From the NCBI GenBank assembly GCA_937900435.1, contig CALCEG010000006.1, positions 1 to 36,958 on the forward strand: 36,958 nucleotides of DNA, in the 5' to 3' direction. The translations under genes were made by a program, and so were the position numbers. Shown here piece after piece: positions 1-26,431 of this stretch. The DNA comes from an uncultured Alphaproteobacteria bacterium (GTDB taxonomy: Bacteria; Pseudomonadota; Alphaproteobacteria; Rs-D84). How positions within the stretch are numbered: the stretch's first letter is position 1; each line of letters starts with the position of its first letter. The notes below the pieces were generated by a model. It had not been told where the DNA came from, ran no database searches, and was given only the letters and a program-made list of their open reading frames with translations.

Positions 1-33
1 TGGCGCGGGCGATGGTTCCACAACCTTTAATTT
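1..33 (+). repeat. IR-L: left 33-bp inverted repeat of the putative invertible tail-fibre segment (also present as 36904-36936)
   Basis: TGGCGCGGGCGATGGTTCCACAACCTTTAATTT is the exact reverse complement of 701-733. The match extends to 38 bp with one mismatch. It encodes GAGDGSTTFNL of the tail-collar motif. Confidence 0.95.
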
Positions 34-55
34 ACCGAATAAATCCCCAGAAAGA
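1..55. repeat. Window-end overlap, copy 1 (identical to 36904-36958); seam of a circular assembly of about 36,903 bp
   Basis: The 55-mer tggcgcgggcgatggttccacaacctttaatttaccgaataaatccccagaaaga is at both window ends. It lies inside one uninterrupted reading frame (tail fibre), so it behaves as a k-mer-sized assembly overlap, not a biological terminal repeat. Confidence 0.95.
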
Positions 56-10165: not shown

Positions 10166-11011
10166 ATGGCATTGACATACACAACAGACGATTTTTATTC
10201 AACAATGAATAATTTAATGTCATCGGTTCAACGACCGACTCCGCCAAATATGACTTTGATTCCAAATTCATCAAAACAGGAATTATTACCGAATTTGGCA
10301 CCAAAGACCAAAGGCCCAATGACTGTACAAACCGCAAGCGGTGCACTAATGTCAGTTCCAGAGGGCACACCTTTAAATAAGACCAGCATACCTGCAACAA
10401 CACCGACAATTACAGAATCCGCGCCCACAACAACTATTGACGCGTCCAGTGCTTATTCTATGTTTGATGTTGAAAAATTGGGAAAATTCCGCGCAATATG
10501 GGGAACGACTGGCAACGATTCAAAAGATTGGCAAAGATATATTGATATGGCAGGAAAGGCAAAAGTTGCATCGGCGACATTGACTGCGGCTGGTGGTATT
10601 GCCGGAAGTATTTTAGATATAAGTGCAGCGCATAAATTAGTCAAAGATACCGAAGCAACAAAGAGTCAATACGAAACCCAAAAGAAAATTATTGATACAA
10701 ATGTCGCGGATACTACATCGGCTTTAACTGAAAACTTGCAAGAAAATATGGCTAATCTTGACGTTATGGCGGCTGCAAAAAATGTCGACCTTTCTTCCCA
10801 AGCGATTGTTGGCGATAAAACCAAGGGCGCAATGGATTTGGGACAAGATATTGAAAAAATGCAAAGAGAGAGTTCTTTACAAAAGGCAGCACTTGATTTA
10901 CAATATGCAAGAAGTGTTAGAGCAGCAAAACAAGCCAGAATAGACACAACGATAAATTCAATTTTAAGTAGTGCTGGTGCTGTGGCAACTGGTGCTTTAA
11001 TGTTAGTCTAG
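10166..11011 (+). CDS. Internal virion/ejection protein candidate (gp14 position)
   Basis: 281 aa with a Pro/Thr-rich N-terminus, coiled middle and hydrophobic C-terminus AGAVATGALMLV. The call rests on synteny after the nozzle gene. Confidence 0.4.
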   Translation: MALTYTTDDFYSTMNNLMSSVQRPTPPNMTLIPNSSKQELLPNLAPKTKGPMTVQTASGALMSVPEGTPLNKTSIPATTPTITESAPTTTIDASSAYSMFDVEKLGKFRAIWGTTGNDSKDWQRYIDMAGKAKVASATLTAAGGIAGSILDISAAHKLVKDTEATKSQYETQKKIIDTNVADTTSALTENLQENMANLDVMAAAKNVDLSSQAIVGDKTKGAMDLGQDIEKMQRESSLQKAALDLQYARSVRAAKQARIDTTINSILSSAGAVATGALMLV

Positions 11012-11021
11012 GGAGTAAAAT

Positions 11022-12716
11022 ATGGCAAAACTTTACCAAAAACAAAATATCGGTTTATCGCGCGGTTCTATTTTGCAACCTTTACAGCCGACAAGTTATG
11101 GTTCTGTGGTTCGTGATGCTACAAAAACAGCCACTACTGCACTTGATAAAGTTGTTGTTGAAAACTGGACTTTGGGACACGCGAATCTTGTAAATGACAT
11201 TTTAACCCAAGCATACGAACAAAATCCAAATAATCTTGCCAGATTTAATGAAATGGTTGAATCGGGGGTATTGAAAGCAACAGAAAAATTACCTGAATCC
11301 TTGGCGCGTAAATTGCGTGCAGGTGCTGAAAGTAAAGCGTCTGCATTTCAAACCAAGATTAAAAATAATCAAATGGACGCTTTCGATGCAGAGCAAAAAC
11401 AAAAAATCGGCATAATGCAAGATGCTTTAACTGGCGATACACCGCTTGGGGTTGCCGGATTGCAAAAAATGATTTACGACGGTTTGATAAACAAAGACGA
11501 AAATCAAGTAATTCAAGCAAAGAAAAATCTTGATGCCGCACGTAAACAGTTATCAAATTTAGCCGAAGTCAAAAACAGTCGCGGAAATTATGTTATCGGC
11601 ACAGCAACCGAACGCAACGCATTGAAACAAGGCGAATTTGGTATGATGGACGCTTTTAGAACAAATATCGAAAGCCTGCCAAAAGACGGATTGGTTGATT
11701 TTTATAATAATGTTTTCCAAGACAAAAAGAAATATATGGAAAATACAGGGGTTAGTTTTGAATCTTATGACAAACAAGATAAAATCATAACGGACCGCAT
11801 CAAGGCATTTGATATGAAAGATAAAATCGAAATGCGCGACCAAGATTTTTTTGAAGCATCGCGTATATCGAAAGTTGACCCTGCTGTATGGGAAGATATT
11901 AAATCTCACGGCACATTAAAACAAGAAACCATAGATACAATTGACAAGGCTATCAAGGAAGCAGGAAAGAAAGGCGACCCTGATAAAGTATTCTTTACAG
12001 ACCAAAATCAAGGATTTCTTGCGGGATTGGCAGAATTACAAAATGCAATTTCAACTGACACTGGTGCACCCGATTATAACGACAACCTATTACAAACAGC
12101 AGCAAAAGTTGATATGAATATTGCACAAATGCACAGAAACGGACTTGGGGACGAACAAACCGAAATATTGCGTCGTGCGTTATCTGGTGTTGTTAGCGAC
12201 CAAAACTTTGCTGATGTCTTAAATATGAACGATGATTCATTTTTCAGTGAAATTGTGCGTGGTGCCAACAATGATTATCGTAAATCCGTGGAAAGTGCCG
12301 CCGAATCGATTCGTGCAAAATATGCAAACAATCCAAATCCAATGGCACAAAGACAAATGGAACAAGAATTAAAAGATTTGGAATTAAATAAATGGGCAAA
12401 TCCTTATTTGCGGAATGTTAGAACAGAATTTACAGACCAAACCAAAACTGCCTTAAATGAATTGGCGGGTCGTTATTCTGCACAAATTGTCGCATTGGAA
12501 CAAGCAGGACAACACGAACAAGCAATGCAATTAAAACACGATGCAAACAAAGAATTGATTTTCTTGAAATATAGTGATTGGATTCCACGTCAAGAATTTG
12601 CTAGACTTGAAAATGCACTGGCAAACGGTAAAAAAGCATATACCCAAATCGGCGGGTCTATGTTTGAATACAAAGGTTTAACTCAAAACGGCATAGCAGT
12701 AGAGGGGGTATTTTAA
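11022..12716 (+). CDS. Internal virion/ejection protein candidate (gp15 position)
   Basis: 564 aa, helical composition. The call rests on synteny. Confidence 0.4.
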   Translation: MAKLYQKQNIGLSRGSILQPLQPTSYGSVVRDATKTATTALDKVVVENWTLGHANLVNDILTQAYEQNPNNLARFNEMVESGVLKATEKLPESLARKLRAGAESKASAFQTKIKNNQMDAFDAEQKQKIGIMQDALTGDTPLGVAGLQKMIYDGLINKDENQVIQAKKNLDAARKQLSNLAEVKNSRGNYVIGTATERNALKQGEFGMMDAFRTNIESLPKDGLVDFYNNVFQDKKKYMENTGVSFESYDKQDKIITDRIKAFDMKDKIEMRDQDFFEASRISKVDPAVWEDIKSHGTLKQETIDTIDKAIKEAGKKGDPDKVFFTDQNQGFLAGLAELQNAISTDTGAPDYNDNLLQTAAKVDMNIAQMHRNGLGDEQTEILRRALSGVVSDQNFADVLNMNDDSFFSEIVRGANNDYRKSVESAAESIRAKYANNPNPMAQRQMEQELKDLELNKWANPYLRNVRTEFTDQTKTALNELAGRYSAQIVALEQAGQHEQAMQLKHDANKELIFLKYSDWIPRQEFARLENALANGKKAYTQIGGSMFEYKGLTQNGIAVEGVF

Positions 12717-12717
12717 T

Positions 12718-15700
12718 ATGGAAAAAGATTTTTTAACAGACCAAACGCTTTCATTGGACGATGCAATTGCAAAAGCCCAAAGCATAACCCCTGATGATGA
12801 CCCACAATTTGACCCTGTGTTGCCATCACAGTTAAATACTGCCGAAAAAACACCTAGCAAACACACAATGTCTATGGACGATGCGTTAAAAACATATCGT
12901 CTAAAAATGGACTCTATCGAGGGGTTGACCCGAATCGCTAATGGCGATATAACCACGCATTTTTGGGGAAATCTAGCAAAAGGCGCAGGTGATTTTATTC
13001 AAGAAATGAAAATGCAACCCGCCAAATTTGACGGTATGGTTTATCGCGCGTTTAATGGGCACGTCTGGCCGAACATGACAGAGGACGAAGCGGTTCGTTT
13101 AATGGATTCTGCCACTTCTTATGTTGCCAATCAGGAAAGATTACGCAACATTATCGTGCAATCCCAAGGCGGTGCCGATTCGCTTGTGCGTCCGCTTGGC
13201 TCTGGTGCATTGCAAGTATTATCGCTTGGTGTTGTTGGTTTGATGACTGGGGGTGCCGGAATTGGTGCGCTGGCAGGATTACAAGAAGCCAGTGATATAT
13301 CCCAAGAATTTGCAGAAAAAGCAATGGATGAAAACGGCGGAACATTACGCGGTTATGATAATCGCGAGGACGCTTTATACGCTGCATTACACGGTATTAT
13401 ATCTGGTTATATTGAAACTAAACTCGGTGTTGAAAATTTATTTACTGGTGCGGCTAAAAATACATTTGCAAGCAGACTTGGAACACAAATACTAAAATCC
13501 GCTGCGGGCGAGGGTGCCGAGGAATTTTTGCAAGAGGGTTCTAAGTTCTTGTTTGAAAATATGGCAGGTAAGAACAATCGCACAGGCGGGGAGTTCTTAA
13601 AAGACGCTTTAACAAATGCTGTTTATGGTGCCATTTTAGGCGGTGCGTTCAGTATTCCAATGTATCAAGTGAATAAATTACGCATCAACAAAGCATTACG
13701 CGCACAAGGTTTTACTGATGTTGAAGCGGACGAAATGACAAATGACATGATTGATAACGCGAAAAAATCAATCTTGCAAGAAGTCGATACTCGTTCTCAA
13801 TTACGCGAACACTATGGCGAACAATGGACAGGATTAAAAAATAAAGTCATTATCGCTTTGGAAAATGCAGGTTGGAAAGAAACACACCCAGAAATTGACT
13901 TGGAAAAATATGCAGCAGACAACGCGGACGATATCGTAAGACCGTTGTTTAATATGTCAAATAAATTCGGTATTGATACGCGAGATTTGTTGCAATTGGC
14001 AGATATTGATGTTATTGACAATGCGATTTACTTAAAACCAATGAATCTTGGTTCTGCGGAAGTTATTGCAAATAGAATCCGTGAAAAGAAAGAACAGGTC
14101 AAACGGTTAAATATTTTGGCGCGGACTGGTGCAGGCAATCCAGAAACCAAACGCACATTAAATACCCAAATTGAATTGTTGCAAAAATATTATGAAAAAT
14201 TGACTGGCGACAGATTGAATTTGGCGCGCCGGACTCGTGCTGGAAAAGCCAGATTGGATGCAGAAGTTTTAGCCAGTACAGCCCCAGCCGTATCAGAAAC
14301 AATCGCAAATATAGATATATCGCAAATGTCCAGTGGCGAACCAACAACACAAATACGTGAAAAATTGGACGGTCAACCGTTTGTTTATGTTGGCGATAAG
14401 CAATTACCAGTTGAATATAAAGTGGTTCCTATGGACGAAGTTATTGCGTCCCACATAGGTCAAGATATAAATACAAATTATTCATTAAAAGAATTGCAGA
14501 ATCGGGCACAGCGTGGAAGCAGAACCGACGTGTCAATCTTGCAATCCAGGGCAGCAAAGATTCAACCTGAAAACCTTGGAATTGCGTATAACACTCAAAA
14601 CGGCGCACCAGTTGTCAATGACAAAGGCGAAGTGATTGCTGGAAATGGTCGTTATGAAGTATTGCGTATGACGGACGAAAAAGGTCGTGCCAGATACAAT
14701 AAATACCTTGAATCACTTGGTTTAGATTTGACAGGCATAAAAGACCCAATCTTGGTCCGCGTTATGCACAATTTGACACCAGAACAGCAAATCGCAGTTG
14801 CAGACGCAAGTAATGTATCGGCAACGTCTGCATTTGATAACGCCAGCCAAGCCGCACAAGACGCAAAGTTATTGAAAGGCACAACAGGCGTAACGGATTT
14901 CTTAAATAAGATTCCAATCGAATCACGCCAGGGTTTATTTTTGGCAAATGACCGCGTAAATAAAGTTGCTTTGGACCGCAGATATAATGACGCTTTAATG
15001 ATGTGGTTGTTGAATAATGATACCGAATTATACGAGGAATTGTATTTGATGGGTGGAATCACACAAAAGATTCAAAGTGCATTGAATCAGTCAATACCGC
15101 AATTGATGTCATTAGAAAACCAATATCCAGATGTTGGTTTGCGTCAAGATTTAGCAAACGCATTAAAACGGTTGCCACAAATTTCACGTCAAGCAGATTT
15201 TGCATTTGCAATATCACAGGTTGAAATTGACGATGGCAGACCTGATTTATTCAATGAAAACGCTTTGTTGTATGTGTTGAATTTTGGAAAGAATACAAAA
15301 ACCTGGGAGGGAACAGGTGCAGATAGATTACAGGTCGGTTTGACATTACCTGAATTTTTTGACACATACACCCAGAAAGCGACAACCAATCAGGAAAATA
15401 TCGGTCAGGTCGATATGTTTGGACAACCGCTGGCAGTGGAACAAAGCAGAGGGGATTTGCTTGCTGAAACTTTGACGCTGGCATTCCCACGTGAATTTCA
15501 AGATGGTGCAGCAACCAGCCGTGATATGAAAGCGGTATTCTTGACACGTGCCCAGACAGCACCAACACAATTAAATCAGATGGATTTACTGGACACAGTA
15601 CAACCGTCATTATTTGCAGACGATACGTCAACAGCCAGTGCAGTAAGAAACTTGCCTTGGGAAACACCAGTCAACGTATCAAATCCAACATTCTTTAATC

Positions 15701-18700
15701 GTATGCCAGACGCAAACGACATTGAAATCGCACGCAACAATGGCATAGATTCATTCTTGATACTTGATAAAAACGAAGTTCCATCGAAACTTGTATTGCT
15801 GGACGGTTCGGTTGTCGGTCTTAAACCTGGTGCAAAAGTTCCATCAGGAAAAGATTTGTATAAACCATCGACACCACGTCAATTATTCCAAACAGAGGAA
15901 AGAAATCTTGTTGTAACACACGGTATATCGCTGCGTAATCTGCAAAAGGTTCTTGACCTTGGTGGAATGGCTGCACCGTCAATAGCGATTTCAAGTATAA
16001 ATGAACCTTTGACTGATTTTGGCACAATTACATTGGTTGGTAACAAAGATATTATCGACCCAGCCAAATCAGCAAATCGTGTTTATGACCGTGATATTTG
16101 GTCGCCAACAATGCCGTTCAAAACATACCCAAAGGCAAAGACCAAATCGGCAAATGCTTTCCGTGATAAATTCAAAAGCACATTTGTAAAAGCAGACGAC
16201 GAAGCAAACTTGGGCGAAGTGTTATATTATGCACAAAATTCAGCAAGACCAGAACAGGCAGTGCAAAAGTTCGAATGGTCCAGAGGTGCAAAACTATATT
16301 ATGTTGAAAACGTTTTGGGTAAAAAAATAGATATTCCAACACGTTCAGTCAACAAAGACGATATTTGGGGATTGCACCCAGACCAAGAATTTATCGACGC
16401 ATTAAAAGACGTTGATTCGATGGCACCTATGGACGAGGTTATAAAAAAAGTAACCGACGCTGCACGTGCTTTGATAAACCGCACTGATTACGGTAAATAT
16501 ACGAAAGAATACAGGGAAACATTTTTAAGTGATTACCCAGAGGATTATTCAGGTAATTTTAATCGTATGGACAGTATTTTATATCAAACCAAAAAATATG
16601 CACAAAATATAGGCGAAACCGAAGTCGATACAAGTGCACTTGGTAGAATCTTGGACGAATATGCAAACAACGACCAAAATTATCAGAAATGGGCAGAATC
16701 ACAAATTGAGGAAATGTTAGGTTCGCCAAAAGTCGAAGTCGGTAAAAAATTGCTTGACTGGAATCTTGAAAACGTAACAAAAGCAATGTTAAAAGCAGGC
16801 ACAGTGAACGGTCAAAATTCATTGGTTTATGGTGTTGGTAAAGTAATCTCTGCTGGTTCCACAAGATTTACGTCAATCAAAGGTATCAAAGAAGCAGCAA
16901 AGAATCTTAAAACAAAGAAAGACGCAGCCGAATTGACCGACGCACTTGGTGCAAGAATGCAGGATTTCACAAATAAATTTATGTCCGATTCGGATTTCAC
17001 AAATTCGATGGAACAAAAAGAAGCAGCATTTAGGGCTTTGGGAACATTGGCTGCAAGTGGCAATCCAACAAAAGAAAGATTGCAAAGCGTTCTGAACTAT
17101 GAATTGGCAAACAAAGAAAAATACCCAGACGAATTATTGCAAGAGGGTGTCGATATTGCCAAGGCAACCAAAGAAGTTGTGCGTTATTACTTTGAAGCGA
17201 AACCACAACGTTCAGTTTTATTGACCGAGTTTTCTGGTGCAGTAATGCCAGACGATTCGTCATACGACGAAATGGCACAAAAATTAAAAGACCTTGGTTT
17301 GCAAGTTGAACGCACAGACAATTTACAACAAGGTATTCGCAACATTGAAAATTCAGTTGGGGGTGTATTATTCCAGGGACGCAAAGTCAATGGATTTTAT
17401 GACCCAGAACTTGAAGTAATTGTTTTGGGACGCAGTTCTAATACTGGAACATTGCCACACGAAATGTCGCATTACTGGGCAAACACCATATTCAACCTGG
17501 TTAAATCAGGCAAATATAACAATAATCCTGATTTTATGGCACAGGCGATGGGAATGTTTAGAATGTTGGGCGTTGGTATGAACCAAGATACATTGACACG
17601 CGACCAACAAGAAATGTTTGCGTCAATGACCGAATCATATATCTTTGGAATGGCAAGAGTGCCAGAGGGAATAAAATTACCAATGACAGCATTCTTTAAT
17701 TGGGTTCCTGCAAAATACAAATCATTCCAAGACATAGGTTATATCAATTCCGAGGGGAAAGTTATAAACCCTATATTTGATAAATATGCTGTTGAATGGT
17801 TTAATGCGTGGTATGCAAATGGAACATTGCCGTCCATCGACGCTTCGCCTTTAATGATGGAAAATTCAAATGGCGAACAAGATGGTCGTATAATTCCATC
17901 AACAGCAGAAGTTATGAAAACGCGTGAAGCCGAAATGACAGCAGAAGCCGATAGATTAAAACGCGCACGCACAGACCAAACAACCGAAGCAATGGAATCA
18001 ACACCTTTGAGTGAACGCGCCGCAGCCGCAGCCGCCGAGGTTGAAATCGAATCCAAACCAGATAATTTGAAATTGAGTGAACCGCCGGCAGAAAAGAAAA
18101 AGAACATTGTGTCCTATTTGATTCCAGGGCGTGGAACAAACACACGCGAGGGAATGTTCCAAGTAGCGCGCGATTATCTTAAAAAAGAACCAGAACATGC
18201 ACGCGAAATCGCTTTTGGCAATCCTGCACTGGTTCAAAATGATACAGGAGTTGATAGGGCTATCTTGATTCGTGCGTTGATGGAGGAATACAAACAAGGC
18301 GACCCAGAATATGCAGAATTGTATCATAACCTGGCTGAAACAGTATCATTGGCTGGTAAAACCCCAGGTTTATCAAATGATATGAATTTCCAATATTATC
18401 GCGTTGCAATGGACCGTATAAGAAACGGCATGGAAGCAAAAGCAGCGATTAAATATGCAGGCACACGCAACCTAAACAAAGCCAGACGGACATTCAATGC
18501 TGATATTGACGCATTTATACAAGAACACGCGGCAAAGATATTGAATACAGCACCTGATACAGATAAACGCGAAATGCTGATAAAGCAAATGTTAGCAGAG
18601 GCAACCCTTAAATTCGGTGGGGAAACAGCAACCCAATTGAATCAAGAGGATTTGCGTCGTGGTCGCGGTATCAAATCAGGCGAAAGAGAGGTATTTACTG

Positions 18701-20196
18701 AATGGGCAAATCGTGAAATTCGCAAAAAGTTGAAAGCGGAACCTGATATAAATACCATAAATAAAACTATGGAATTATCAGAAAAAGCACAAAAAGCCCT
18801 TAAATCAGTCAATTCAGACGATTTAGCGGAAGCACAAGCAGCAGTAAAACAAATCCGCGAATGGCAAATGTTTGTTGCCGACCAAGATGTACCTGCAACT
18901 TGGTATTCAAAATTGATTGGTTCGTGGTATCCAAAAGCAATGTTGTATAACATCAATACGCATAGCGTGAATATCTTGGGAACGGGTATAAACTATGCTG
19001 TGGTCGAGGCTGCACTCGAAATTCAATATGGGAAAGGGAAAGTATCAAAAAGCGCAGTGGATGCAGAAAAAAAGCGTTTGCGTGCATTATACGATTCTAA
19101 TTTGGTAAGTTTAGCGGGTATGATGGACCCAACAAGCCCAACATTATTACATGGTGAACAATACAATCCACGCGAGGGTAGAGGTTTAGGCGCAAAGGCT
19201 GTAAACTTTTCAATGGATTTATTGGGTAAAGAAGATAACTGGTTCAAGGTCCAAGTATATGTTGATGCATTAAATCGTATTGCCACCGCAGACGCAGCAA
19301 AAACAGGCGAAAGTCCAACAGAATTATTTAGACTTTACAAGCGTTTAGATAATCCAAAAGACAGTCGTGCATACAAAGCGCATCAAGAAGCAGTTGTAAT
19401 AGCCCAGACAGCAGTATTTCAACAGACAGGAGTATTATCAACAGCATTGAAAAAAGGTCGTGATGCTTTGAACAATTTAACTATATTTGGATATAAAACC
19501 GAATTGGGAACATTGTTAGCACCATTTGTCAAAACACCAGCGAACATCGTGGAACAAGGCGCACGTGCAATCGCCGCCCCGATAAGAGTCGCAAATCACG
19601 CAATAAAAAGCGATTGGAAAAATTGGTCTGTTCAAGATACCTTGGATGTTGGGTATTTTGTATTAGGTTGTGCGCTTGGTGCGATTGCTATGATGACGGA
19701 CTATGAGCCGCCCTATGAAGCACCACACAAATACGACCCGAATAAACCTTATGATTCAATAAAAATCTTTGGTGGAGCGTGGATTAAACTTGATACATTT
19801 GGTATCGCGGCGGTTCCAATGCGTGTCATGGCGTCTTTAATGACCGGAAAAGGGCTTGGTGTAGCCGGAACACTGAACGATATACCTTTGGTAGGAGATT
19901 TAGCGGAATCTTATCAACAAGCGGCACAGATAGAACAAGCCCCATACACCAAAGGAACAAGATTTATTGCAAATCTGGGGTATAATCGTATCAATACAGC
20001 AGTTCCAGCAATAGCGCGTTATACTATCGCAGCGATGCACCCAGCGGACATCGGTTTGGAAAATGTGGATTTTGGATTGCCAAAAACAGGCATCGGTCGT
20101 AAGATTAAAAGACAATACGGATTGGACGGTGGCGACACAACCACGAACGATATATTGCGTATATTCTTTAACAGATTGAAGATTGCTGAGGAATAA
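12718..20196 (+). CDS. Giant 2,492-aa virion-associated polyvalent/ejection protein candidate (gp16 position)
   Basis: A single uninterrupted ORF with ATG directly after the upstream stop. It has Gly-rich hydrophobic segments near both ends, a ParB-like GNGR segment, and an HEMSH zincin motif. It is the last gene before the double terminator. Confidence 0.6.
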   Translation: MEKDFLTDQTLSLDDAIAKAQSITPDDDPQFDPVLPSQLNTAEKTPSKHTMSMDDALKTYRLKMDSIEGLTRIANGDITTHFWGNLAKGAGDFIQEMKMQPAKFDGMVYRAFNGHVWPNMTEDEAVRLMDSATSYVANQERLRNIIVQSQGGADSLVRPLGSGALQVLSLGVVGLMTGGAGIGALAGLQEASDISQEFAEKAMDENGGTLRGYDNREDALYAALHGIISGYIETKLGVENLFTGAAKNTFASRLGTQILKSAAGEGAEEFLQEGSKFLFENMAGKNNRTGGEFLKDALTNAVYGAILGGAFSIPMYQVNKLRINKALRAQGFTDVEADEMTNDMIDNAKKSILQEVDTRSQLREHYGEQWTGLKNKVIIALENAGWKETHPEIDLEKYAADNADDIVRPLFNMSNKFGIDTRDLLQLADIDVIDNAIYLKPMNLGSAEVIANRIREKKEQVKRLNILARTGAGNPETKRTLNTQIELLQKYYEKLTGDRLNLARRTRAGKARLDAEVLASTAPAVSETIANIDISQMSSGEPTTQIREKLDGQPFVYVGDKQLPVEYKVVPMDEVIASHIGQDINTNYSLKELQNRAQRGSRTDVSILQSRAAKIQPENLGIAYNTQNGAPVVNDKGEVIAGNGRYEVLRMTDEKGRARYNKYLESLGLDLTGIKDPILVRVMHNLTPEQQIAVADASNVSATSAFDNASQAAQDAKLLKGTTGVTDFLNKIPIESRQGLFLANDRVNKVALDRRYNDALMMWLLNNDTELYEELYLMGGITQKIQSALNQSIPQLMSLENQYPDVGLRQDLANALKRLPQISRQADFAFAISQVEIDDGRPDLFNENALLYVLNFGKNTKTWEGTGADRLQVGLTLPEFFDTYTQKATTNQENIGQVDMFGQPLAVEQSRGDLLAETLTLAFPREFQDGAATSRDMKAVFLTRAQTAPTQLNQMDLLDTVQPSLFADDTSTASAVRNLPWETPVNVSNPTFFNRMPDANDIEIARNNGIDSFLILDKNEVPSKLVLLDGSVVGLKPGAKVPSGKDLYKPSTPRQLFQTEERNLVVTHGISLRNLQKVLDLGGMAAPSIAISSINEPLTDFGTITLVGNKDIIDPAKSANRVYDRDIWSPTMPFKTYPKAKTKSANAFRDKFKSTFVKADDEANLGEVLYYAQNSARPEQAVQKFEWSRGAKLYYVENVLGKKIDIPTRSVNKDDIWGLHPDQEFIDALKDVDSMAPMDEVIKKVTDAARALINRTDYGKYTKEYRETFLSDYPEDYSGNFNRMDSILYQTKKYAQNIGETEVDTSALGRILDEYANNDQNYQKWAESQIEEMLGSPKVEVGKKLLDWNLENVTKAMLKAGTVNGQNSLVYGVGKVISAGSTRFTSIKGIKEAAKNLKTKKDAAELTDALGARMQDFTNKFMSDSDFTNSMEQKEAAFRALGTLAASGNPTKERLQSVLNYELANKEKYPDELLQEGVDIAKATKEVVRYYFEAKPQRSVLLTEFSGAVMPDDSSYDEMAQKLKDLGLQVERTDNLQQGIRNIENSVGGVLFQGRKVNGFYDPELEVIVLGRSSNTGTLPHEMSHYWANTIFNLVKSGKYNNNPDFMAQAMGMFRMLGVGMNQDTLTRDQQEMFASMTESYIFGMARVPEGIKLPMTAFFNWVPAKYKSFQDIGYINSEGKVINPIFDKYAVEWFNAWYANGTLPSIDASPLMMENSNGEQDGRIIPSTAEVMKTREAEMTAEADRLKRARTDQTTEAMESTPLSERAAAAAAEVEIESKPDNLKLSEPPAEKKKNIVSYLIPGRGTNTREGMFQVARDYLKKEPEHAREIAFGNPALVQNDTGVDRAILIRALMEEYKQGDPEYAELYHNLAETVSLAGKTPGLSNDMNFQYYRVAMDRIRNGMEAKAAIKYAGTRNLNKARRTFNADIDAFIQEHAAKILNTAPDTDKREMLIKQMLAEATLKFGGETATQLNQEDLRRGRGIKSGEREVFTEWANREIRKKLKAEPDINTINKTMELSEKAQKALKSVNSDDLAEAQAAVKQIREWQMFVADQDVPATWYSKLIGSWYPKAMLYNINTHSVNILGTGINYAVVEAALEIQYGKGKVSKSAVDAEKKRLRALYDSNLVSLAGMMDPTSPTLLHGEQYNPREGRGLGAKAVNFSMDLLGKEDNWFKVQVYVDALNRIATADAAKTGESPTELFRLYKRLDNPKDSRAYKAHQEAVVIAQTAVFQQTGVLSTALKKGRDALNNLTIFGYKTELGTLLAPFVKTPANIVEQGARAIAAPIRVANHAIKSDWKNWSVQDTLDVGYFVLGCALGAIAMMTDYEPPYEAPHKYDPNKPYDSIKIFGGAWIKLDTFGIAAVPMRVMASLMTGKGLGVAGTLNDIPLVGDLAESYQQAAQIEQAPYTKGTRFIANLGYNRINTAVPAIARYTIAAMHPADIGLENVDFGLPKTGIGRKIKRQYGLDGGDTTTNDILRIFFNRLKIAEE
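14411..14870 (+). other. ParB/sulfiredoxin-like segment inside the giant protein (tentative)
   Basis: VVPMDEVIASH...PENLGIAYNTQNGAPVVNDKGEVIAGNGRYEVLR resembles the ParB N-terminal-domain pattern (hydrophobic-x-G-x-x-R after a PxxL...P-hydrophobic-hydrophobic segment). Confidence 0.3.
17377..17650 (+). other. HExxH zincin-like metallopeptidase signature inside the giant protein
   Basis: NGFYDPELEVIVLGRSSNTGTLPHEMSHYW (HEMSH at 17458-17472), followed by QEMFASMTESYIFG, which supplies a possible third ligand Glu. Confidence 0.4.
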
Positions 20197-20201
20197 TTTA
20201 T

Positions 20202-20226
20202 AATCGCCAAGGTTGGCGATTTTCAA
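20202..20226 (+). terminator. Late-operon terminator 1
   Basis: Stem AATCGCCAA / TTGGCGATT around GG, followed by TTTTC. Confidence 0.55.
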
Positions 20227-20287
20227 GGAATCCGCGGGGTTATTGTCGCCAAGGTTGGCGTTTTTCCAGAATTCCGCGGGTTTCAGG
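20204..20287 (+). repeat. Tandem 42-bp repeat (2 copies); each copy is a hairpin, a T-run and a CCGCGG palindrome
   Basis: TCGCCAAGGTTGGCGATTTTCAAGGAATCCGCGGGGTTATTG versus TCGCCAAGGTTGGCGTTTTTCCAGAATTCCGCGGGTTTCAGG, about 33/42 identical. Confidence 0.85.
20247..20265 (+). terminator. Late-operon terminator 2
   Basis: CGCCAA-GG-TTGGCG followed by TTTTT. Confidence 0.7.
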
Positions 20288-20349
20288 TTGACAAAATAAG
20301 CAAAACCAAATACACCAAGGGATTTAGAGTGTGTTTTTGGTTTTGTCAA
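20288..20349. repeat. Large hairpin / inverted repeat with two alternative registers
   Basis: CAAAACCAAA (20301-20310) pairs with TTTGGTTTTG (20336-20345). Alternatively, TTGACAAAA (20288-20296) pairs with TTTTGTCAA (20341-20349). Confidence 0.7.
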
Positions 20350-20353
20350 CATA

Positions 20354-20400
20354 AAATTGCTTTAATTTGATATTATGACGATATTATATTAAAGCAATTT
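20354..20400. repeat. 13-bp perfect inverted repeat with a 21-bp spacer that holds GATATTAT twice
   Basis: AAATTGCTTTAAT (20354-20366) and ATTAAAGCAATTT (20388-20400); the spacer is ttgatattatgacgatattat. Confidence 0.85.
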
Positions 20401-20473
20401 AGGCGGAAAGTAGGCGAGATTCCAGAAGCCGAAATCACGATAAAGGGCTTTAACATCAGTAATCGACGGATTA

Positions 20474-20518
20474 CCGCAATCGCAAAATGAACGGACACGA
20501 AGCCGATTGGGTTTTTTT
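20474..20518 (+). terminator. Weak terminator-like element ending a GC-richer island
   Basis: CC(G)CAATCG pairs with CGATTGGG (8 bp with one bulge, 21-nt loop), followed by a T7 run (20512-20518). Confidence 0.3.
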
Positions 20519-20625
20519 ATACTATAAGAATCAGGAATAAAAATCATTATTATCAAAAATAAGGTCTGGACATATTGGAAATCTGGGAAAAGTATATTTT
20601 TGATAGAAATAATGGCATAAAACCG

Positions 20626-20673
20626 TATGGAAAGATATATGGAATGTATGATGGATTCAAATATGGAATAAGT
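20626..20673. repeat. Four tandem 12-bp iteron-like repeats (core ATGGA at exact 12-bp phase)
   Basis: The units are tatggaaagata, tatggaatgtat, gatggattcaaa and tatggaataagt. ATGGA starts at 20627, 20639, 20651 and 20663. Confidence 0.8.
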
Positions 20674-20678
20674 CGTCA

Positions 20679-20741
20679 ATATGTTAAAAAAACTATAATT
20701 ATTTAACATATCGCAAAAATAACTATAAAGTTTTAACATAT
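20679..20741. repeat. TTTAACATAT motif three times (one inverted), including a 21-bp direct repeat 30 bp apart
   Basis: ATATGTTAAA is at 20679-20688. AACTATAATTATTTAACATAT (20691-20711) and AACTATAAAGTTTTAACATAT (20721-20741) are 18/21 identical. Confidence 0.8.
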
Positions 20742-20759
20742 TTTGAAATTATGTTTTAC

Positions 20760-20768
20760 ATTATACCA
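20760..20768 (-). promoter_or_regulatory. Possible extended -10 promoter (TGGTATAAT) reading leftward into the non-coding region
   Basis: The reverse complement of attatacca is TGGTATAAT. There is no good -35. It is divergent from the rightward promoter at 20826. Confidence 0.35.
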
Positions 20769-20825
20769 GGAATACGTAAAAGATAATTTACATTTATCGA
20801 TTTTTTCCATTTTGGAAATAACCAC

Positions 20826-20955: not shown

Positions 20956-20983
20956 TTGACTATTATAAAATGTATGTTATAAT
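20956..20983 (+). promoter_or_regulatory. Early promoter P-B (TTGACT-16-TATAAT)
   Basis: TTGACT at 20956-20961, TATAAT at 20978-20983. About 45 bp are nearly identical to the promoter at 25229. The leader holds a 9-bp hairpin, GGAATCCTG/CAGGATTCC (21021-21045). Confidence 0.7.
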
Positions 20984-21560: not shown

Positions 21561-21689
21561 ATGATTAAAGTTGTTGGTTATATAAACGGAAAAAGCATTT
21601 GTGATTATTTGCCTGATACACCAGAAAACAGGCGTTTAATCCAAACTGCGATATCTTATGGTTTAACCGCAGCAATTGTGAGGTTATAA
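21561..21689 (+). CDS. Hypothetical 42-aa protein (below the track cutoff)
   Basis: ATG 21561 follows AAAGGT. It reads MIKVVGYINGKSICDYLPDTPENRRLIQTAISYGLTAAIVRL, and its stop overlaps the next start (TAATG). Confidence 0.5.
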   Translation: MIKVVGYINGKSICDYLPDTPENRRLIQTAISYGLTAAIVRL

Positions 21690-22546
21690 TGAAAAAGAAA
21701 AAACAAACTTTACCGGCAGAAAAAATATCAATTACAAGCATGTCTGGATTGATTCATAATGATTCCCCAGAATTGCCTTGGCGCAACGAACAAACAGGCG
21801 AATTAGAAAACTGTCGTAAAAAATTGATTTACGCGGAGGAGTTATACGAAGCGTTGGGATTGGCTAAATCACATCGTGCGCGTTCTATTGCGAAATGGAA
21901 ATCGTGCGGATTTGAAAATATAGACTGGAACGAACGCGAAATTGTTGGAAAAAAACGCAATACAACATCTGCTTATTTGCGTGTTGAATTTGCAAAAAAA
22001 ATATGTATGCAAATACAAACCCCGATAGCAGACGCAGTGCGCGATTATCTTATTAAAGAAACAGCGGCGTTTTGGGCTGCTGCAAAGCGTCAAGCCCTTG
22101 CGGTTGCCAACCCAACAATTCAACCCCAATTTTCATTATCAGATGCGGTTCGTCAAGTTGTGGAAAAAGCCGTTAAAGATGCTGTGGAAATTGCGGTTGC
22201 TGAAACAAATCAACGCAATCAAACAGCGTCTAGGGAATTGTTTAATCAAAAATTTGCACTGTTGGAAGATATGAAAACTGAACACGTGGACGAAAGAAAC
22301 AAAGCAAATTTACGCGCGCATATATCAAATATGGTACGAAAACATTGTTTTGAACATGGTGAGGATTATAAAACTTTTTGGGAAAAATGTTATAACTCAT
22401 TCAAGATTCGTCATAAATCTTGCGATTGGTATTGGGCTTTTTCTAAATCCACAAATAAAGTTGGGTTTATTGCTGAAAATTTACCAATAAAATATTTGCA
22501 AGAGTTCCAGCAGATAGTAACATCTTTTATACTAGAATACAAATAA
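21689..22546 (+). CDS. AntA/antirepressor-like DNA-binding protein (function tentative)
   Basis: LIYAEELYEALGLAKSHRARSIAKWKS ... YLRVEFAKKICMQIQTPIADAVRDYLIK resembles the AntA/KilAC-type pattern. Confidence 0.45.
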   Translation: MKKKKQTLPAEKISITSMSGLIHNDSPELPWRNEQTGELENCRKKLIYAEELYEALGLAKSHRARSIAKWKSCGFENIDWNEREIVGKKRNTTSAYLRVEFAKKICMQIQTPIADAVRDYLIKETAAFWAAAKRQALAVANPTIQPQFSLSDAVRQVVEKAVKDAVEIAVAETNQRNQTASRELFNQKFALLEDMKTEHVDERNKANLRAHISNMVRKHCFEHGEDYKTFWEKCYNSFKIRHKSCDWYWAFSKSTNKVGFIAENLPIKYLQEFQQIVTSFILEYK

Positions 22547-22566
22547 AGCACAGAAAGGAGTAAAAT

Positions 22567-23064
22567 ATGCAGAAAAAACAATATAATTACAAGTCGCTTG
22601 AAAAAGCCACCAAAGCAGAATTGCAAGCGTGGATTTCAGAAGTGTTGTCATATTTGCGAACACTGCCACAAAATAATTACGAAGTAAGTCCCGAAACAAT
22701 AGATGCATTTTGTAATGACTGGACAGGTAAAAGCACCGACGCGGTTGCTGTAACCAATGATTACTTTGCTGAATTTTGGCGTTTATACCCACGCAAAGTC
22801 GGTTCCAAAGCAAAGGTCAAACAAGCATTCAATAACGCGGTTATTCGCGGTTCCACACCAGAACAGATACTGAATGGGACCGCTATGTATGCACGAATCC
22901 GTAATGAAATTACCAAAAAAGACCCATCAAAAGAATGTTTTACGGCACACCCGACAACATTCTTGAATCAAGATAGATTCTTGGCGGTTGATTCAATGCG
23001 TAAGGAATTACTGGGTTTAATCGGTAATACGCCAATGGCGATTGCCACTGTAACAGGATTTTAA
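22567..23064 (+). CDS. Hypothetical 165-aa protein with the FW-x-x-YP-x-K-x-G-x-K motif common in phage early regions
   Basis: FAEFWRLYPRKVGSKAKVKQAF ... AHPTTFLNQDRF. AAAGGAG lies upstream. Confidence 0.7.
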   Translation: MQKKQYNYKSLEKATKAELQAWISEVLSYLRTLPQNNYEVSPETIDAFCNDWTGKSTDAVAVTNDYFAEFWRLYPRKVGSKAKVKQAFNNAVIRGSTPEQILNGTAMYARIRNEITKKDPSKECFTAHPTTFLNQDRFLAVDSMRKELLGLIGNTPMAIATVTGF

Positions 23065-26425: not shown

Positions 26426-26431
26426 TATACA

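What the first reader, a model, noticed from the sequence alone, without database searches (positions are those of the whole stretch)
12718..20196. 2,492-aa giant protein occupies 20 percent of the genome: a polyvalent ejection protein with ParB-like and zincin-like modules
Seen:
- A single 7.5-kb ORF sits at the gp16 (internal core/ejection protein) position of a T7-type tail and core gene block.
- Gly-rich hydrophobic stretches occur near the N-terminus (LGSGALQVLSLGVVGLMTGGAGIGALAGL) and the C-terminus (VGYFVLGCALGAIAMMTDY, FGIAAVPMRVMASLMTG).
- A ParB-like segment is centred on VIAGNGRYEVLR (about 14641).
- There is an HEMSH motif (17458-17472) with a downstream E-rich helix.
- The rest is long helical stretches with no motif I can name, including a THGISLRNLQKVLDLGGMAAPSIAIS block near 15910.

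Established knowledge: phages and conjugative elements deliver very large polyvalent proteins into the recipient cell. These combine ParB-like, peptidase and other effector domains to counter host defences (DarB-type and related proteins).

Inference: this protein may fuse the channel-forming ejection function with injected anti-defence or host-takeover effectors. Most of its length is uncharacterised.
Basis: partly seen in the sequence, partly recalled or inferred. Interest (0 to 1): 0.7.

Follow-up and report, generated by a model that had tools for sequence, protein, structure and literature searches.

The report
Giant injected phage protein, swappable weapons
One gene fills a fifth of this small gut-phage genome and most likely encodes a protein that is injected with the DNA: it has fixed end pieces resembling those of phage N4's injected giant polymerase, and a middle stretch of enzyme modules that close relatives swap.

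Summary
ORF 12718-20196 (2,492 aa, 20% of a circular ~36.9-kb genome) is real and has about 84 intact close relatives. It is the last gene of the late operon, after a T7-type portal, adaptor, nozzle and two small Cys-free proteins.

- The ParB call is correct (Pfam ddrB-ParB, E 1e-19).
- The unnamed "THGISL" block is a PBECR5 RNase (E 1e-24).
- The HEMSH domain hits no Pfam zincin family and no solved zincin fold. Its HExxH is invariant in 191/191 relatives. It aligns by hhalign with the HExxH region of N4 virion RNA polymerase (prob 87-89%).
- An N-terminal EGxEExxQ segment also matches N4-like vRNAPs.
- The protein has 1 Cys in 2,492 residues; six vRNAPs checked have none.

Found here, and not mentioned in the papers I read:
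- aa 1059-1553 is a recombination hot-spot cassette, 6-763 aa long in relatives. It is 99% identical to ours on a backbone only 70-78% identical, and absent from a backbone 97% identical.
- Every module boundary carries a hydrophobic-aromatic-Gln motif (LFQ, LYQ, NIYxQ).

Best reading: an N4-gp50/DEV-gp71-like ejection protein whose polymerase cargo is replaced by exchangeable effectors. Processing at the Gln motifs is a hypothesis. This is a new member of the known polyvalent-protein class. Packaging and cleavage are untested.

The parts
12718..20196 (+). Giant ORF, 2,492 aa; last gene of the late (structural) operon
   Evidence: about 84 intact homologues
10166..11011 (+). 281-aa upstream protein: Cys-free, P/T-rich N-terminus, two Gly/Ala-rich hydrophobic segments (aa 134-152, 263-281). 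Candidate gp14 / N4 gp52-like ejection protein (inferred).
   Evidence: conserved synteny
11022..12716 (+). 564-aa upstream protein: Cys-free, no hydrophobic segment. Candidate gp15 / DEV gp72-like periplasmic-tunnel protein (inferred from position and size only).
   Evidence: PMC11445570 for the analogue
13075..14157 (+). N-terminal frame (aa ~120-480), conserved in 173 of the 246 proteins held, 89 of them distant representatives. Includes the EGxEExxQ...GG segment (aa ~254-309) that aligns with N4-like vRNAP aa ~380-435.
13195..13281 (+). Gly-rich hydrophobic segment, aa 160-188 (KD peak 1.78); hydrophobic and small-residue character kept across the family
14398..14766 (+). ddrB-like ParB domain, aa 561-683; VIAGNGR motif identical in 81/84 relatives
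15877..15891 (+). Junction motif 1, RQLFQ|T (Gln at aa 1058); end of the conserved N arm
15895..16518 (+). [quoted passage not shown]
16576..16587 (+). Junction-like motif 2, ILYQ|T (Gln at aa 1290), just after the PBECR5 domain
16588..17361 (+). Unassigned module, aa 1291-1548; travels with PBECR5 (in P0002, P0003, P0085-89, and weakly in Acinetobacter phage Ab9)
17365..17376 (+). Junction motif 3, VLFQ|G (Gln at aa 1553), 28 aa upstream of HExxH. The same position is occupied in 175/190 relatives. It is disordered in the model.
17377..17877 (+). HExxH (zincin-like, N4-vRNAP-clade) domain, aa 1554-1720. HEMSH is at 17458-17472. Glu1632 is invariant and Glu1639 at least 90% conserved.
17878..18087 (+). 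Poorly conserved acidic/Ala-rich linker, aa 1721-1790
18088..20193 (+). C-terminal frame, aa 1791-2492. It always follows the HExxH domain in the 179 held proteins that cover the full C arm; 487 clusters match the C-arm profile at E<=1e-3. Invariant GxxxxPFxxTxAN and DYEPPY motifs. No hit in Pfam, PHROGs or PDB sequences.
19639..19848 (+). C-terminal hydrophobic segments, aa 2308-2329 (KD 1.69; holds the only Cys, C2318) and aa 2361-2377
20203..20268 (+). Two tandem terminator-like hairpins (CGCCAAGGTTGGCG followed by a T run) immediately after the stop codon. They mark the end of the late operon.

Best explanation
The gene encodes a virion-packaged protein that is ejected with the DNA. It occupies the gp16 slot of a T7-type ejection operon (281 aa, then 564 aa, then 2,492 aa). 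It follows the plan of the giant ejection protein of N4-like phages (N4 gp50 / DEV gp71).

Parts:
- A conserved N-terminal frame with a hydrophobic Gly-rich helix and an EGxEExxQ segment.
- A central cargo region.
- A conserved HExxH zinc domain.
- A conserved helical C-terminal frame with hydrophobic segments.

N4 carries an RNA polymerase as cargo. This family instead carries effector enzymes. All close relatives have a ddrB-type ParB domain. In this phage it is followed by a PBECR5 RNase plus one unassigned module.

The cargo slot just upstream of the HExxH domain is a recombination hot spot. Related phages exchange, add or lose modules there.

Every module ends in a hydrophobic-aromatic-Gln motif (LFQ, LYQ, NIYxQ). 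The same motif sits in a disordered linker about 28 residues upstream of HExxH throughout the wider family.

I infer that after ejection, or inside the capsid, the HExxH domain cuts at these Gln sites and releases the effectors. The effectors would then act on host or competitor nucleic acids. The end frames would serve packaging, membrane passage and perhaps part of the DNA conduit.

Shown here: the domain identities, the mosaicism, the motif, the Cys depletion, and the similarity to vRNAPs.
Inferred: packaging, ejection, membrane insertion, proteolysis and the effectors' targets.
For: Position and operon:
- The gene follows the portal (PF12236), adaptor-like and nozzle-like genes and two small proteins. 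It is the last late gene, followed by two terminator hairpins.

Domains:
- ddrB-ParB, E 1e-19; PBECR5, E 1e-24; both well above the Pfam cut-offs.
- GNGR is kept in 81/84 relatives. His1068 is conserved.

HExxH domain:
- HExxH is present in 191/191 relatives. Glu1632 is invariant and Glu1639 at least 90% conserved.
- Sub-threshold hits go to SprT-like, DUF6782, ATLF, M78 and M91, all metallopeptidase or zincin-type families.
- hhalign against N4 vRNAP aa 2130-2448 gives prob 88.7, score 44.5. Shuffles that keep the HExxH block score 23.8 +/- 1.5.
- A profile-profile comparison with six vRNAPs gives prob 87%.

N frame:
- hhalign against the vRNAP family gives prob 67%, score 43.8. Column shuffles score 10.9 +/- 1.9.

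Cys depletion:
- The giant has 1 Cys in 2,492 aa. The two upstream proteins have 0 in 845 aa. Other ORFs have 1.2%, P = 2e-12.
- Six vRNAPs have 0 Cys each. PMC11445570 notes the same for DEV gp71 and N4 gp50.

Cassette:
- Lengths range from 6 to 763 aa, in 23 architecture clusters.
- It is 99% identical to ours on a 70-78% identical backbone, and absent from a 97% identical backbone.
- An extra module in P0002 is inserted exactly at the LFQ.

Junction motif:
- 61% of homology breakpoints lie within 3 aa of the motif, against 6.6% for random positions.
- It is present upstream of HExxH in 175/190 relatives, against a 17% background.
- It is disordered in the model.
- The two window copies share only 9 nt.

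Precedents:
- DEV gp71 is an ejection protein with TM helices in gp71-N and a Zn motif in gp71-C. gp71-C binds the tunnel protein (PMC11445570).
- JC1's 4,515-aa giant is 22% of its genome and is found in virions by mass spectrometry (PMC9144972).
- Iyer et al. proposed metallopeptidase processing of polyvalent proteins (PMC5512222).
Against: - No direct evidence of packaging exists. The lineage is uncultured; the portal and the 564-aa protein have no tblastn hit in GenBank phages.
- The HExxH domain has no Pfam family above threshold. Foldseek against the PDB gave only E>2 (anthrax lethal factor at rank 3, a Zn-peptidase at rank 5) despite pLDDT 80.5.
- According to Iyer et al. (PMC5512222), N4 vRNAP is packaged unprocessed even though it has the homologous domain. 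That domain need not be a protease.
- Metallopeptidases more often select P1' than P1 (my own knowledge). The Gln motif may therefore be a linker or a docking element.
- The C frame shows no similarity to the vRNAP C-terminus.
- There is no lytic transglycosylase domain and no sequence similarity to T7 gp16.
- The hydrophobic segments are only moderately hydrophobic when averaged over the family (about 1.05).
Confidence: 0.62

Rival explanations
1. The giant protein is packaged and ejected but is never cleaved. The HExxH domain is a zinc-binding structural or encapsidation module, as described for N4 vRNAP. The Gln motifs are flexible linker or docking elements, or footprints of how modules are inserted. 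The effector domains act while tethered to the membrane-embedded frame.
For: - According to Iyer et al. (PMC5512222), N4 vRNAP carries the homologous HExxH region, is packaged unprocessed, and needs that region for encapsidation.
- N4 has GNIYGW (no Gln) at the equivalent place.
- Foldseek finds no significant solved zincin.
- An extra module in P0002 sits exactly at the motif, and the motif is duplicated on both sides of it, as an insertion footprint would be.
Against: - HExxH plus the distal Glu are kept in all 191 relatives. That fits catalysis, though metal binding alone could also explain it.
- The motif is kept at the protein level, with only 9 nt shared between the two window copies.
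- It lies in a disordered linker and flanks every unrelated module. This is the layout of viral polyprotein cleavage sites.
Confidence: 0.28
2. The protein is not packaged. It is a late-expressed cytoplasmic polyvalent enzyme, for example for host shut-off, superinfection exclusion or inter-phage competition, that merely happens to lie at the end of the structural operon.
For: - No proteomic data exist.
- The central modules in relatives (ART, RNase) are toxin-like.
- There is no sequence match to any characterised internal virion protein.
Against: - The three consecutive proteins share Cys depletion, as do the N4-like vRNAPs that are ejected.
- Synteny with the portal, nozzle and small-protein genes is conserved.
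- There are two co-linear similarities to vRNAPs.
- Analogous giants are found in virions by mass spectrometry (PMC9144972, PMC11445570).
- An RNase made late in the cytoplasm would hit the phage's own late mRNAs.
Confidence: 0.07
3. The variable giant protein is the receptor-binding or tail-fibre protein. No fibre gene was recognised elsewhere in the genome, and its variable centre would reflect host-range switching.
For: - No tail fibre or spike was identified among the ORFs scanned in the window.
- The centre is hypervariable among close relatives.
Against: - The variable modules are intracellular-type enzymes (ART-PolyVal, PBECR5, HTH), not binding or depolymerase folds.
- P0061 has no cassette at all yet occurs on 8 contigs.
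- In Ab9 and Carin1 a separate tailspike follows the giant gene.
Confidence: 0.02
4. The ORF is an assembly or annotation artefact that fuses several genes.
For: - The window itself is a single contig.
- Two relatives (P0094, P0246) carry the C arm as a shorter ORF on full-length contigs.
Against: - About 84 intact homologues exist.
- An identical protein was recovered from independent assemblies.
- Base composition is similar along the ORF.
Confidence: 0.01

Closest known systems
N4 gp50 / DEV gp71 virion RNA polymerase (giant ejection protein of Schitoviridae)
   Same: - It is the largest gene, placed third after two smaller ejection-protein genes.
- It has an N-terminal helical region with hydrophobic helices.
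- It shares an EGxEExxQ segment (hhalign prob 67%) and a homologous HExxH zinc domain (prob 87-89%), in the same N-to-C order.
- It has virtually no cysteine.
(PMC11445570)
   Different: - It has no RNA polymerase core. The centre holds ParB, an RNase and exchangeable modules.
- The C-terminal ~700 aa show no detectable similarity.
- The phage is a ~37-kb T7-type podovirus, not a ~72-kb schitovirus.
- N4 lacks the Gln of the junction motif and is reported as unprocessed.
Polyvalent proteins of phages and conjugative elements (Iyer, Burroughs, Anand, de Souza, Aravind 2017)
   Same: - Several unrelated enzymatic domains lie in one polypeptide (ddrB-ParB, PBECR5, HExxH peptidase-like).
- The gene sits in a virion-gene context.
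- Relatives show extensive mosaicism.
(PMC5512222)
   Different: - The conserved N and C frames, the single insertion hot spot next to the HExxH domain and the Gln junction motif were not found by term searches of that paper.
- The HExxH domain is not captured by any Pfam model above threshold.
Phage P1 DdrB (with DarA/DarB head proteins)
   Same: - It has a ddrB-type ParB domain followed downstream by an HExxH region.
- P1 DdrB is a head-packaged, proteolytically processed protein.
(PMC5512222)
   Different: - DdrB is 995 aa with ParB at its N-terminus.
- Its HExxH region matches ours only at the motif itself (hhalign score 23.5, which is background level).
- The methyltransferase/helicase domains that define DarB are absent from our protein.
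T7 gp16 internal core / ejection protein
   Same: It has the same slot after nozzle, gp14-like and gp15-like genes, and it is the largest protein of the block.
   Different: - There is no sequence or profile similarity.
- No lytic transglycosylase domain was found.
- It is twice the size and carries enzymatic effectors.
Giant DarB-like virion proteins of Bcep22-like podoviruses (JC1 gp69, 4,515 aa)
   Same: - It is a single gene of about 20-22% of a podovirus genome, at the end of the morphogenesis module.
- The JC1 protein is shown in virions by mass spectrometry (PMC9144972).
   Different: - The domain content differs; those proteins are DarB-type.
- They were not among the seven records returned by tblastn of the giant against GenBank phages.
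2.8-kaa 'hypothetical proteins' of Acinetobacter phage Ab9 and Cobetia phage Carin1 (gp32)
   Same: - They occupy the same position after nozzle and internal-protein genes.
- They share PBECR5 and the HExxH domain (E 1e-19 to 1e-20), and have an FFQ or LFQ motif upstream.

   Different: - Neither the N arm nor the C frame is shared.
- They carry other modules (GNAT, LPD22) and about 1,200 aa after the HExxH domain.

Membership tests
Polyvalent proteins (Iyer et al. 2017) | Two or more unrelated effector or enzymatic domains in one polypeptide of a phage or plasmid | tested here: met
   ddrB-ParB, PBECR5 and an HExxH domain are all in one phage ORF.
Polyvalent proteins (Iyer et al. 2017) | Delivered into the recipient cell together with the DNA | not testable with these tools
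   Only indirect support: gene position, Cys depletion and similarity to vRNAPs.
ddrB-like ParB (PF18763) | Profile match above the curated cut-off | tested here: met
   71.2 bits against a cut-off of 27.6, aa 561-683. P1 DdrB itself scores 134.8 bits.
ddrB-like ParB (PF18763) | Conserved active-site arginine of the ParB/Srx pocket | tested here: met
   VIAGNGR is identical in 81/84 relatives. That this Arg is the pocket Arg follows from the family description in PMC5512222 and was not checked on a structure.
PBECR5 RNase (PF18814) | Profile match above the curated cut-off | tested here: met
   88 bits against a cut-off of 25, aa 1060-1267.
PBECR5 RNase (PF18814) | [quoted passage not shown] | tested here: inconclusive
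   His1068 is conserved in at least 85% of 24 relatives. A conserved Pro-Ser at 1087-1088 exists, but the C-terminal alcoholic residue could not be assigned without a structure.
Zincin-like metallopeptidase of polyvalent proteins (MPTase) | HExxH plus a distal third ligand (Glu) | tested here: met
   HExxH is present in 191/191 relatives. Glu1632, 47 residues after the second His, is invariant, and Glu1639 is at least 90% conserved. Its role as a metal ligand is inferred.
Zincin-like metallopeptidase of polyvalent proteins (MPTase) | Significant match to a curated zincin profile | tested here: not met
   Only sub-threshold hits: SprT-like (best E 0.0077, 10/11 members), DUF6782, ATLF, M78, M91. 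Pfam also finds nothing in the HExxH regions of N4 vRNAP and P1 DdrB, so this test has low power.
Zincin-like metallopeptidase of polyvalent proteins (MPTase) | Zincin fold (strand, HExxH helix, Glu helix) matching solved structures | tested here: inconclusive
   The model has pLDDT 80.5, with a beta-hairpin, the HExxH helix and the Glu helix. Foldseek against the PDB gave a best E of 2.7; anthrax lethal factor ranked 3 and a Zn-peptidase ranked 5, both non-significant. BFVD hits were only unannotated giant phage proteins.
Zincin-like metallopeptidase of polyvalent proteins (MPTase) | Homology to a region that Iyer et al. assigned to the MPTase superfamily | tested here: met
   hhalign against N4 vRNAP aa 2130-2448: prob 88.7, E 2.6e-6, score 44.5. 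HExxH-keeping shuffles reach at most 29.8. The profile-profile comparison gives prob 87%. P1 DdrB matches at the motif only.
N4 gp50 / DEV gp71-type giant ejection protein | Third gene of an operon with two smaller ejection proteins | tested here: met
   The order is 281 aa, 564 aa, 2,492 aa, conserved in relatives. RWG, a relative of DEV, has gp52-like, then 521 aa, then 3,398 aa.
N4 gp50 / DEV gp71-type giant ejection protein | Central T7-like RNA polymerase core | tested here: not met
   No polymerase profile hit was found. hhalign similarity is limited to the N-terminal segment and the HExxH domain. It is therefore not a vRNAP.
N4 gp50 / DEV gp71-type giant ejection protein | Absence of cysteine | tested here: met
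   1 Cys in 2,492 aa against 1.2% in other ORFs, P = 2e-12. The family mean is 0.06%. Six vRNAPs have 0 Cys.
N4 gp50 / DEV gp71-type giant ejection protein | Presence in virions and ejection into the host | not testable with these tools
   The lineage is uncultured.
T7 gp16 | Sequence similarity and an N-terminal lytic transglycosylase domain | tested here: not met
   No Pfam, PHROG or PDB-sequence match of that kind was found. Only the position is shared.
P1 DarB | DNA methyltransferase plus helicase domains | tested here: not met
   Neither domain was detected.

The most novel reading that the evidence does not exclude
The protein is a self-processing cargo polyprotein of the ejection apparatus.
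- An N4-vRNAP-type carrier has lost, or never had, the polymerase.
- It has a defined docking slot where any effector module can be inserted, provided the module ends in a hydrophobic-aromatic-Gln motif.
- The adjacent HExxH domain would cut at each Gln site after injection, and each module would then be released into the host cell.

If this holds, there is a simple sequence rule (the frames, the slot and the Gln site) for what a podovirus can inject. It would also be a natural chassis for delivering chosen proteins into bacteria.
Probability: 0.3. Interest if true: 0.7.

Novelty: new member of a known kind. Interest (0 to 1): 0.5.

Why it matters
- It links two separate lines of work: the computational class of polyvalent proteins, and the structurally studied giant ejection protein of N4-like phages. 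The same end pieces appear to carry either a polymerase or a changing set of nucleases and toxins.
- It gives concrete, cheap tests for the long-standing suggestion that metallopeptidase domains process such proteins. The predicted cut sites are after Q1058, Q1290 and Q1553. The predicted fragments are aa 1-1058, 1059-1290, 1291-1553 and 1554-2492.
- The sharply bounded cassette differs between phages whose backbones are 97% identical. That marks it as a fast-evolving interface with host defences or competing phages in an uncultured, probably gut or rumen, lineage.

Tried and rejected
1. Megablast of the gene against GenBank phages found no match. tblastn gave only weak domain-level hits.
2. 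The whole protein, and later the deep profiles A2, A3 and A4, found nothing meaningful in PDB sequences.
3. A first AlphaFold run of the HExxH domain with 11 close sequences gave pLDDT 52, and its Foldseek matches were meaningless. A 56-sequence alignment raised pLDDT to 80.5, but the PDB search was still non-significant. BFVD returned only unannotated giant phage proteins.
4. A second word-indexed homologue search, using the C-arm profile, returned only 9 proteins.
5. An attempt to align 60 full-length giants failed inside the tool.
6. I tested whether the whole C arm resembles the N4 vRNAP C-terminus. Only the HExxH domain aligns.
7. I tested P1 DdrB as the source clade of the HExxH domain. 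The match is limited to the motif.
8. NCBIfam gave nothing for the giant or its neighbours.
9. I looked for proteomic data on Carin1 gp32. The tailspike paper does not mention that protein.
10. I rejected the idea that DNA homology maintains the junction motif. The two window copies share only 9 nt, and the left crossover in P0002 lies upstream of the motif, inside the conserved arm.
Full report
**1. Observation**

The window is a circular assembly: its first and last 55 bp are identical. All long ORFs lie on the + strand. ORF 12718..20196 is uninterrupted and encodes 2,492 aa, 20.2% of the genome.

HEMSH (aa 1581-1585) is the only HExxH in the protein. Strong hydropathy peaks occur only at aa 160-185 and 2308-2329.

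Upstream lie these genes:
- an endolysin;
- a portal (phrog_332; PF12236 in the orthologous locus);
- a 208-aa phrog_394 tail protein;
- an 843-aa phrog_376 tail protein;
- ORFs of 281 and 564 aa with no family assignment.

Two terminator-like hairpins follow the stop codon. A 630-bp AT-rich non-coding stretch comes next, before the replication-type genes begin. The giant gene is therefore the last gene of the late operon, in the gp16 slot of a T7-type block.

It is not an assembly fusion. About 84 relatives of 1.8-2.7 kaa are intact on 35-37-kb contigs. P0002 was recovered from two independent assemblies. P0061 was found on 8 contigs.

**2. Domains that can be named**

- Pfam gives ddrB-ParB at aa 561-683 (E 1e-19, 71 bits against a cut-off of 27.6).
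- Pfam gives PBECR5 at aa 1060-1267 (E 1e-24, 88 bits against a cut-off of 25).
- VIAGNGR is identical in 81/84 relatives.
- His1068, in the N-terminal helix of PBECR5, is conserved in at least 85% of 24 aligned relatives, including Ab9 and Carin1.
- PHROGs adds only a ParB-like hit. NCBIfam and PDB sequences add nothing.

**3. Architecture from comparison**

BLASTP of the query against its relatives splits it cleanly:
- an N arm, aa 1-1058, conserved;
- a C arm, aa ~1554-2492, conserved;
- a stretch between them, aa 1059-1553, that is replaced.

The central stretch is 6 to 763 aa long in relatives and falls into 23 architecture clusters. Its content includes ART-PolyVal, DUF3990, LPD3, or nothing at all. 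An HTH_17 domain in P0080 and P0081 lies in the C arm, not in the cassette.

The mosaicism is recent:

| Relative | N arm identity | C-terminal identity | Cassette identity |
|---|---|---|---|
| P0004 | 96.7% | 96.9% | no similarity |
| P0002 | 77.7% | 70.5% | 99.0% |
| P0003 | 81% | 66% | 96.2% |

At the DNA level P0002 carries a further 256-aa module. It is inserted exactly at codon 1552/1553.

An exhaustive HMMER search with the C arm found 487 clusters (at 50% identity) with E<=1e-3.
- Full-length matches place the C arm at the C-terminus of giants of 1.8-3.2 kaa.
- The giants scanned carry ART-PolyVal, PBECR5, ddrB-ParB, MuF_C, LPD22 or LPD23.
- The N-terminal region, aa ~120-480, is also kept in 89 of the distant representatives.

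The family therefore consists of two constant frames around variable cargo.

**4. The junction motif**

All module boundaries carry a hydrophobic-aromatic-Gln motif.
- In this protein the boundaries read RQLFQ|T (Q1058), SILYQ|T (Q1290, just after PBECR5) and GVLFQ|G (Q1553).
- In relatives they read PNQLFQ, TPNIYYQ, SQFLQ and similar.
- P0061, which has no cassette, joins the two arms through a single ...GNIYNQ|GRRVNGFYD.
- 61% of N-arm homology breakpoints lie within 3 residues of such a Gln, against 6.6% of random positions.
- [LIVM][FY]Q occurs 6 times in the protein, against 1.8 expected.
- The motif occurs 25-35 residues upstream of HExxH in 175/190 relatives, including 91/106 distant ones. 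The background for windows of the same size is 17%.
- The two junctions in the window share only 9 nt, so conservation is at the protein level.
- The motif lies in the only disordered part of the domain model, residues 1-8 with pLDDT below 50.

**5. The HExxH domain**

- HExxH is present in 191/191 relatives that cover the region.
- Glu1632 is invariant and Glu1639 is at least 90% conserved in the deep alignments.
- Pfam gives only sub-threshold hits. All are to metallopeptidase or zincin-type families: SprT-like (10/11 members), DUF6782, ATLF, M78 and M91.
- An AlphaFold model from 56 diverse sequences reaches pLDDT 80.5. It shows a beta-hairpin, the HExxH helix, a second helix and the Glu helix.
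- Foldseek against the PDB found nothing significant. Anthrax lethal factor and a putative Zn-peptidase were among the top five, at E of about 4.
- BFVD matched only the same domain in unannotated giant phage proteins, with TM 0.55-0.65.

Profile comparison is more informative.
- Against N4 vRNAP aa 2130-2448, the region Iyer et al. unified with zincins, hhalign gives prob 88.7%, E 2.6e-6 and score 44.5. The strand, HExxH and the Glu helix all align.
- 100 shuffles score 12.8 +/- 2.0. Shuffles that keep the HExxH block score 23.8 +/- 1.5, maximum 29.8.
- Against an alignment of six Schitoviridae vRNAPs the probability is 87%.
- P1 DdrB matches only at the motif, with score 23.5.
- Pfam detects neither the N4 nor the DdrB HExxH region. 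Its silence on our domain is therefore weak evidence.

I conclude that this is a divergent zincin-like domain of the N4-vRNAP clade. Catalytic activity is not shown.

**6. Link to giant ejection proteins**

Lokareddy et al. (PMC11445570) showed the following for the N4-like phage DEV:
- The 3,398-aa vRNAP gp71 is co-transcribed with gp73 and gp72.
- gp72 and gp73 form the outer-membrane and periplasmic-tunnel part of the ejection apparatus.
- gp71 is present in virions.
- gp71-N has predicted transmembrane helices.
- gp71-C has a zinc motif and binds the tunnel protein.
- gp71 lacks cysteine, like N4 gp50.

Our locus has the same layout: 281 aa with two hydrophobic Gly/Ala segments, then 564 aa soluble, then the giant.

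The giant has 1 Cys in 2,492 residues. The two upstream proteins have none in 845 residues. The other ORFs of the same genome have 77 Cys in 6,334 residues, binomial P = 2e-12. The six vRNAPs I fetched each have 0 Cys in about 3,500 residues.

Besides the HExxH domain, a second segment aligns with vRNAPs, and the two segments are co-linear. The most conserved part of the N frame is aa ~254-309, consensus EGxEExxQ followed by GxxxGG. It aligns with N4 aa ~380-435 at prob 67%, E 5e-5, score 43.8. Column-shuffled controls score 10.9 +/- 1.9, maximum 17.1.

The C frame shows no similarity to vRNAPs. There is no polymerase core.

**7. Mechanism proposed**

Shown:
- a constant N frame and C frame;
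- a ParB domain;
- an exchangeable cargo slot;
- a conserved HExxH domain next to that slot;
- Gln motifs at every module boundary;
- Cys depletion;
- a late-operon position.

Inferred from the DEV/N4 precedent, and from virion mass spectrometry of an analogous 4,515-aa giant in the podovirus JC1 (PMC9144972): the protein is packaged and ejected. The frames would mediate incorporation, passage and perhaps part of the inner-membrane conduit.

Inferred from the Iyer et al. proposal and the polyprotein-like layout: the HExxH domain cleaves at the Gln motifs and frees the effectors. I give about 0.3-0.35 to this step. According to Iyer et al., N4 vRNAP is packaged uncleaved, N4 has GNIYGW without the Gln, and a P1-Gln preference would be unusual for a metallopeptidase (the last point is my own knowledge).

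The targets of the RNase and the ParB domain are unknown. Iyer et al. suggest host or competitor RNAs and DNA, and counter-defence.

**8. Comparison and novelty**

The protein is a member of the polyvalent-protein class. It is not DarB-like, because no methyltransferase or helicase domain was found. It is not a homologue of T7 gp16, because no similarity and no transglycosylase domain were found.

By domain content it is nearest to P1 DdrB (ParB plus HExxH). By plan, and by two alignable segments, it is nearest to N4 gp50 / DEV gp71.

Cultured phages Ab9 and Carin1 have 2.8-kaa "hypothetical proteins" in the same slot. They share PBECR5 and the HExxH domain but not the frames.

I found no mention of three features in the papers I could read: the two-frame scaffold, the single hot spot and the Gln junction motif. 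These are refinements of a known theme rather than a new kind of system. I rate the finding as a new member of a known kind, with moderate interest. Its value is that it gives exact, testable cleavage sites and links polyvalent proteins to the ejection-motor model.

**9. Limits**

- There is no experimental material. The lineage is uncultured; the portal and the 564-aa protein have no tblastn hit in GenBank phages.
- The host is suggested only by one relative labelled as a Bacteroidales MAG.
- hhalign probabilities of 67-89% with small template alignments are supportive, not conclusive.

Noticed in passing
window 31132-33561 (+): The 809-aa terminase-large-subunit-like ORF appears to be split in its P-loop by an intein-like insert of about 330 aa. 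The sequence reads ...GWRFSGK | ELQWD...LAGLIDADG_3 (PF14528, E 1.6e-8)...GYIATHN | SQFGV.... Removing the insert would restore GWRFSGKSQ. The insert ends in the classical His-Asn followed by Ser, but it does not start with Cys or Ser. It may be a class-3-type intein or a non-canonical one.
   Followed up: partly
window 1-55 and 36904-36958: There is an exact 55-bp direct overlap of the two ends. The contig is therefore a circular (or terminally redundant) complete genome of about 36.9 kb, and every long ORF is on one strand.
   Followed up: yes
window 20197-20825: A 630-bp AT-rich (GC ~0.34) non-coding region follows the giant gene. It begins with two near-identical hairpin units (A/GTCGCCAAGGTTGGCG plus a T run, each followed by GAAT(T)CCGCGGG). 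It holds the best sigma-70-like promoter match of the scanned region (20956-20983, 11/12 with TG). It is probably the late-terminator / early-promoter switch, and possibly also the origin.
   Followed up: partly
window 10166-12716 (+): The two proteins upstream of the giant (281 and 564 aa) contain no cysteine at all. So do the 208-aa adaptor-like, the 182-aa and the 285-aa (33787-34644) proteins. Non-structural ORFs average 1.2% Cys. Cys depletion may mark the set of proteins that leave the capsid.
   Followed up: partly
whole window: No tail fibre, tailspike or receptor-binding protein was recognised by Pfam, PHROGs or NCBIfam among the ORFs scanned. Candidates are the unassigned ORFs 33787-34644 and 34659-35465, or the 281- and 564-aa ORFs.
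   Followed up: no
P0080 and P0081 (relatives), position equivalent to window aa ~2290-2300: A second, rarer insertion site exists in the C frame. An HTH_17 domain (PF12728) of about 55 aa is inserted just before the hydrophobic segment.
   Followed up: no
P0094 (36.4-kb contig) and P0246 (35.2-kb contig): In two full-length relatives the ART module plus the C arm is a separate ORF of 1,139-1,447 aa. The giant gene may be naturally split there, or frameshifted, or read through by programmed recoding.
   Followed up: no
L007, L009-L013 (Schitoviridae vRNAPs): All six virion RNA polymerases fetched (3,398-3,760 aa) contain zero cysteines, and each has an HExxH at about aa 2,090-2,520. Roseovarius Plymouth podovirus 1 has a second HExxH at aa 1291.
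   Followed up: partly
window 25847-27178 (+) and 21689-23064 (+): An HNH endonuclease (phrog_59) lies next to a YqaJ/RecE-like exonuclease. An Ant-like anti-repressor lies next to a DnaD-like replication initiator. No integrase or repressor turned up among the ORFs scanned.
   Followed up: no
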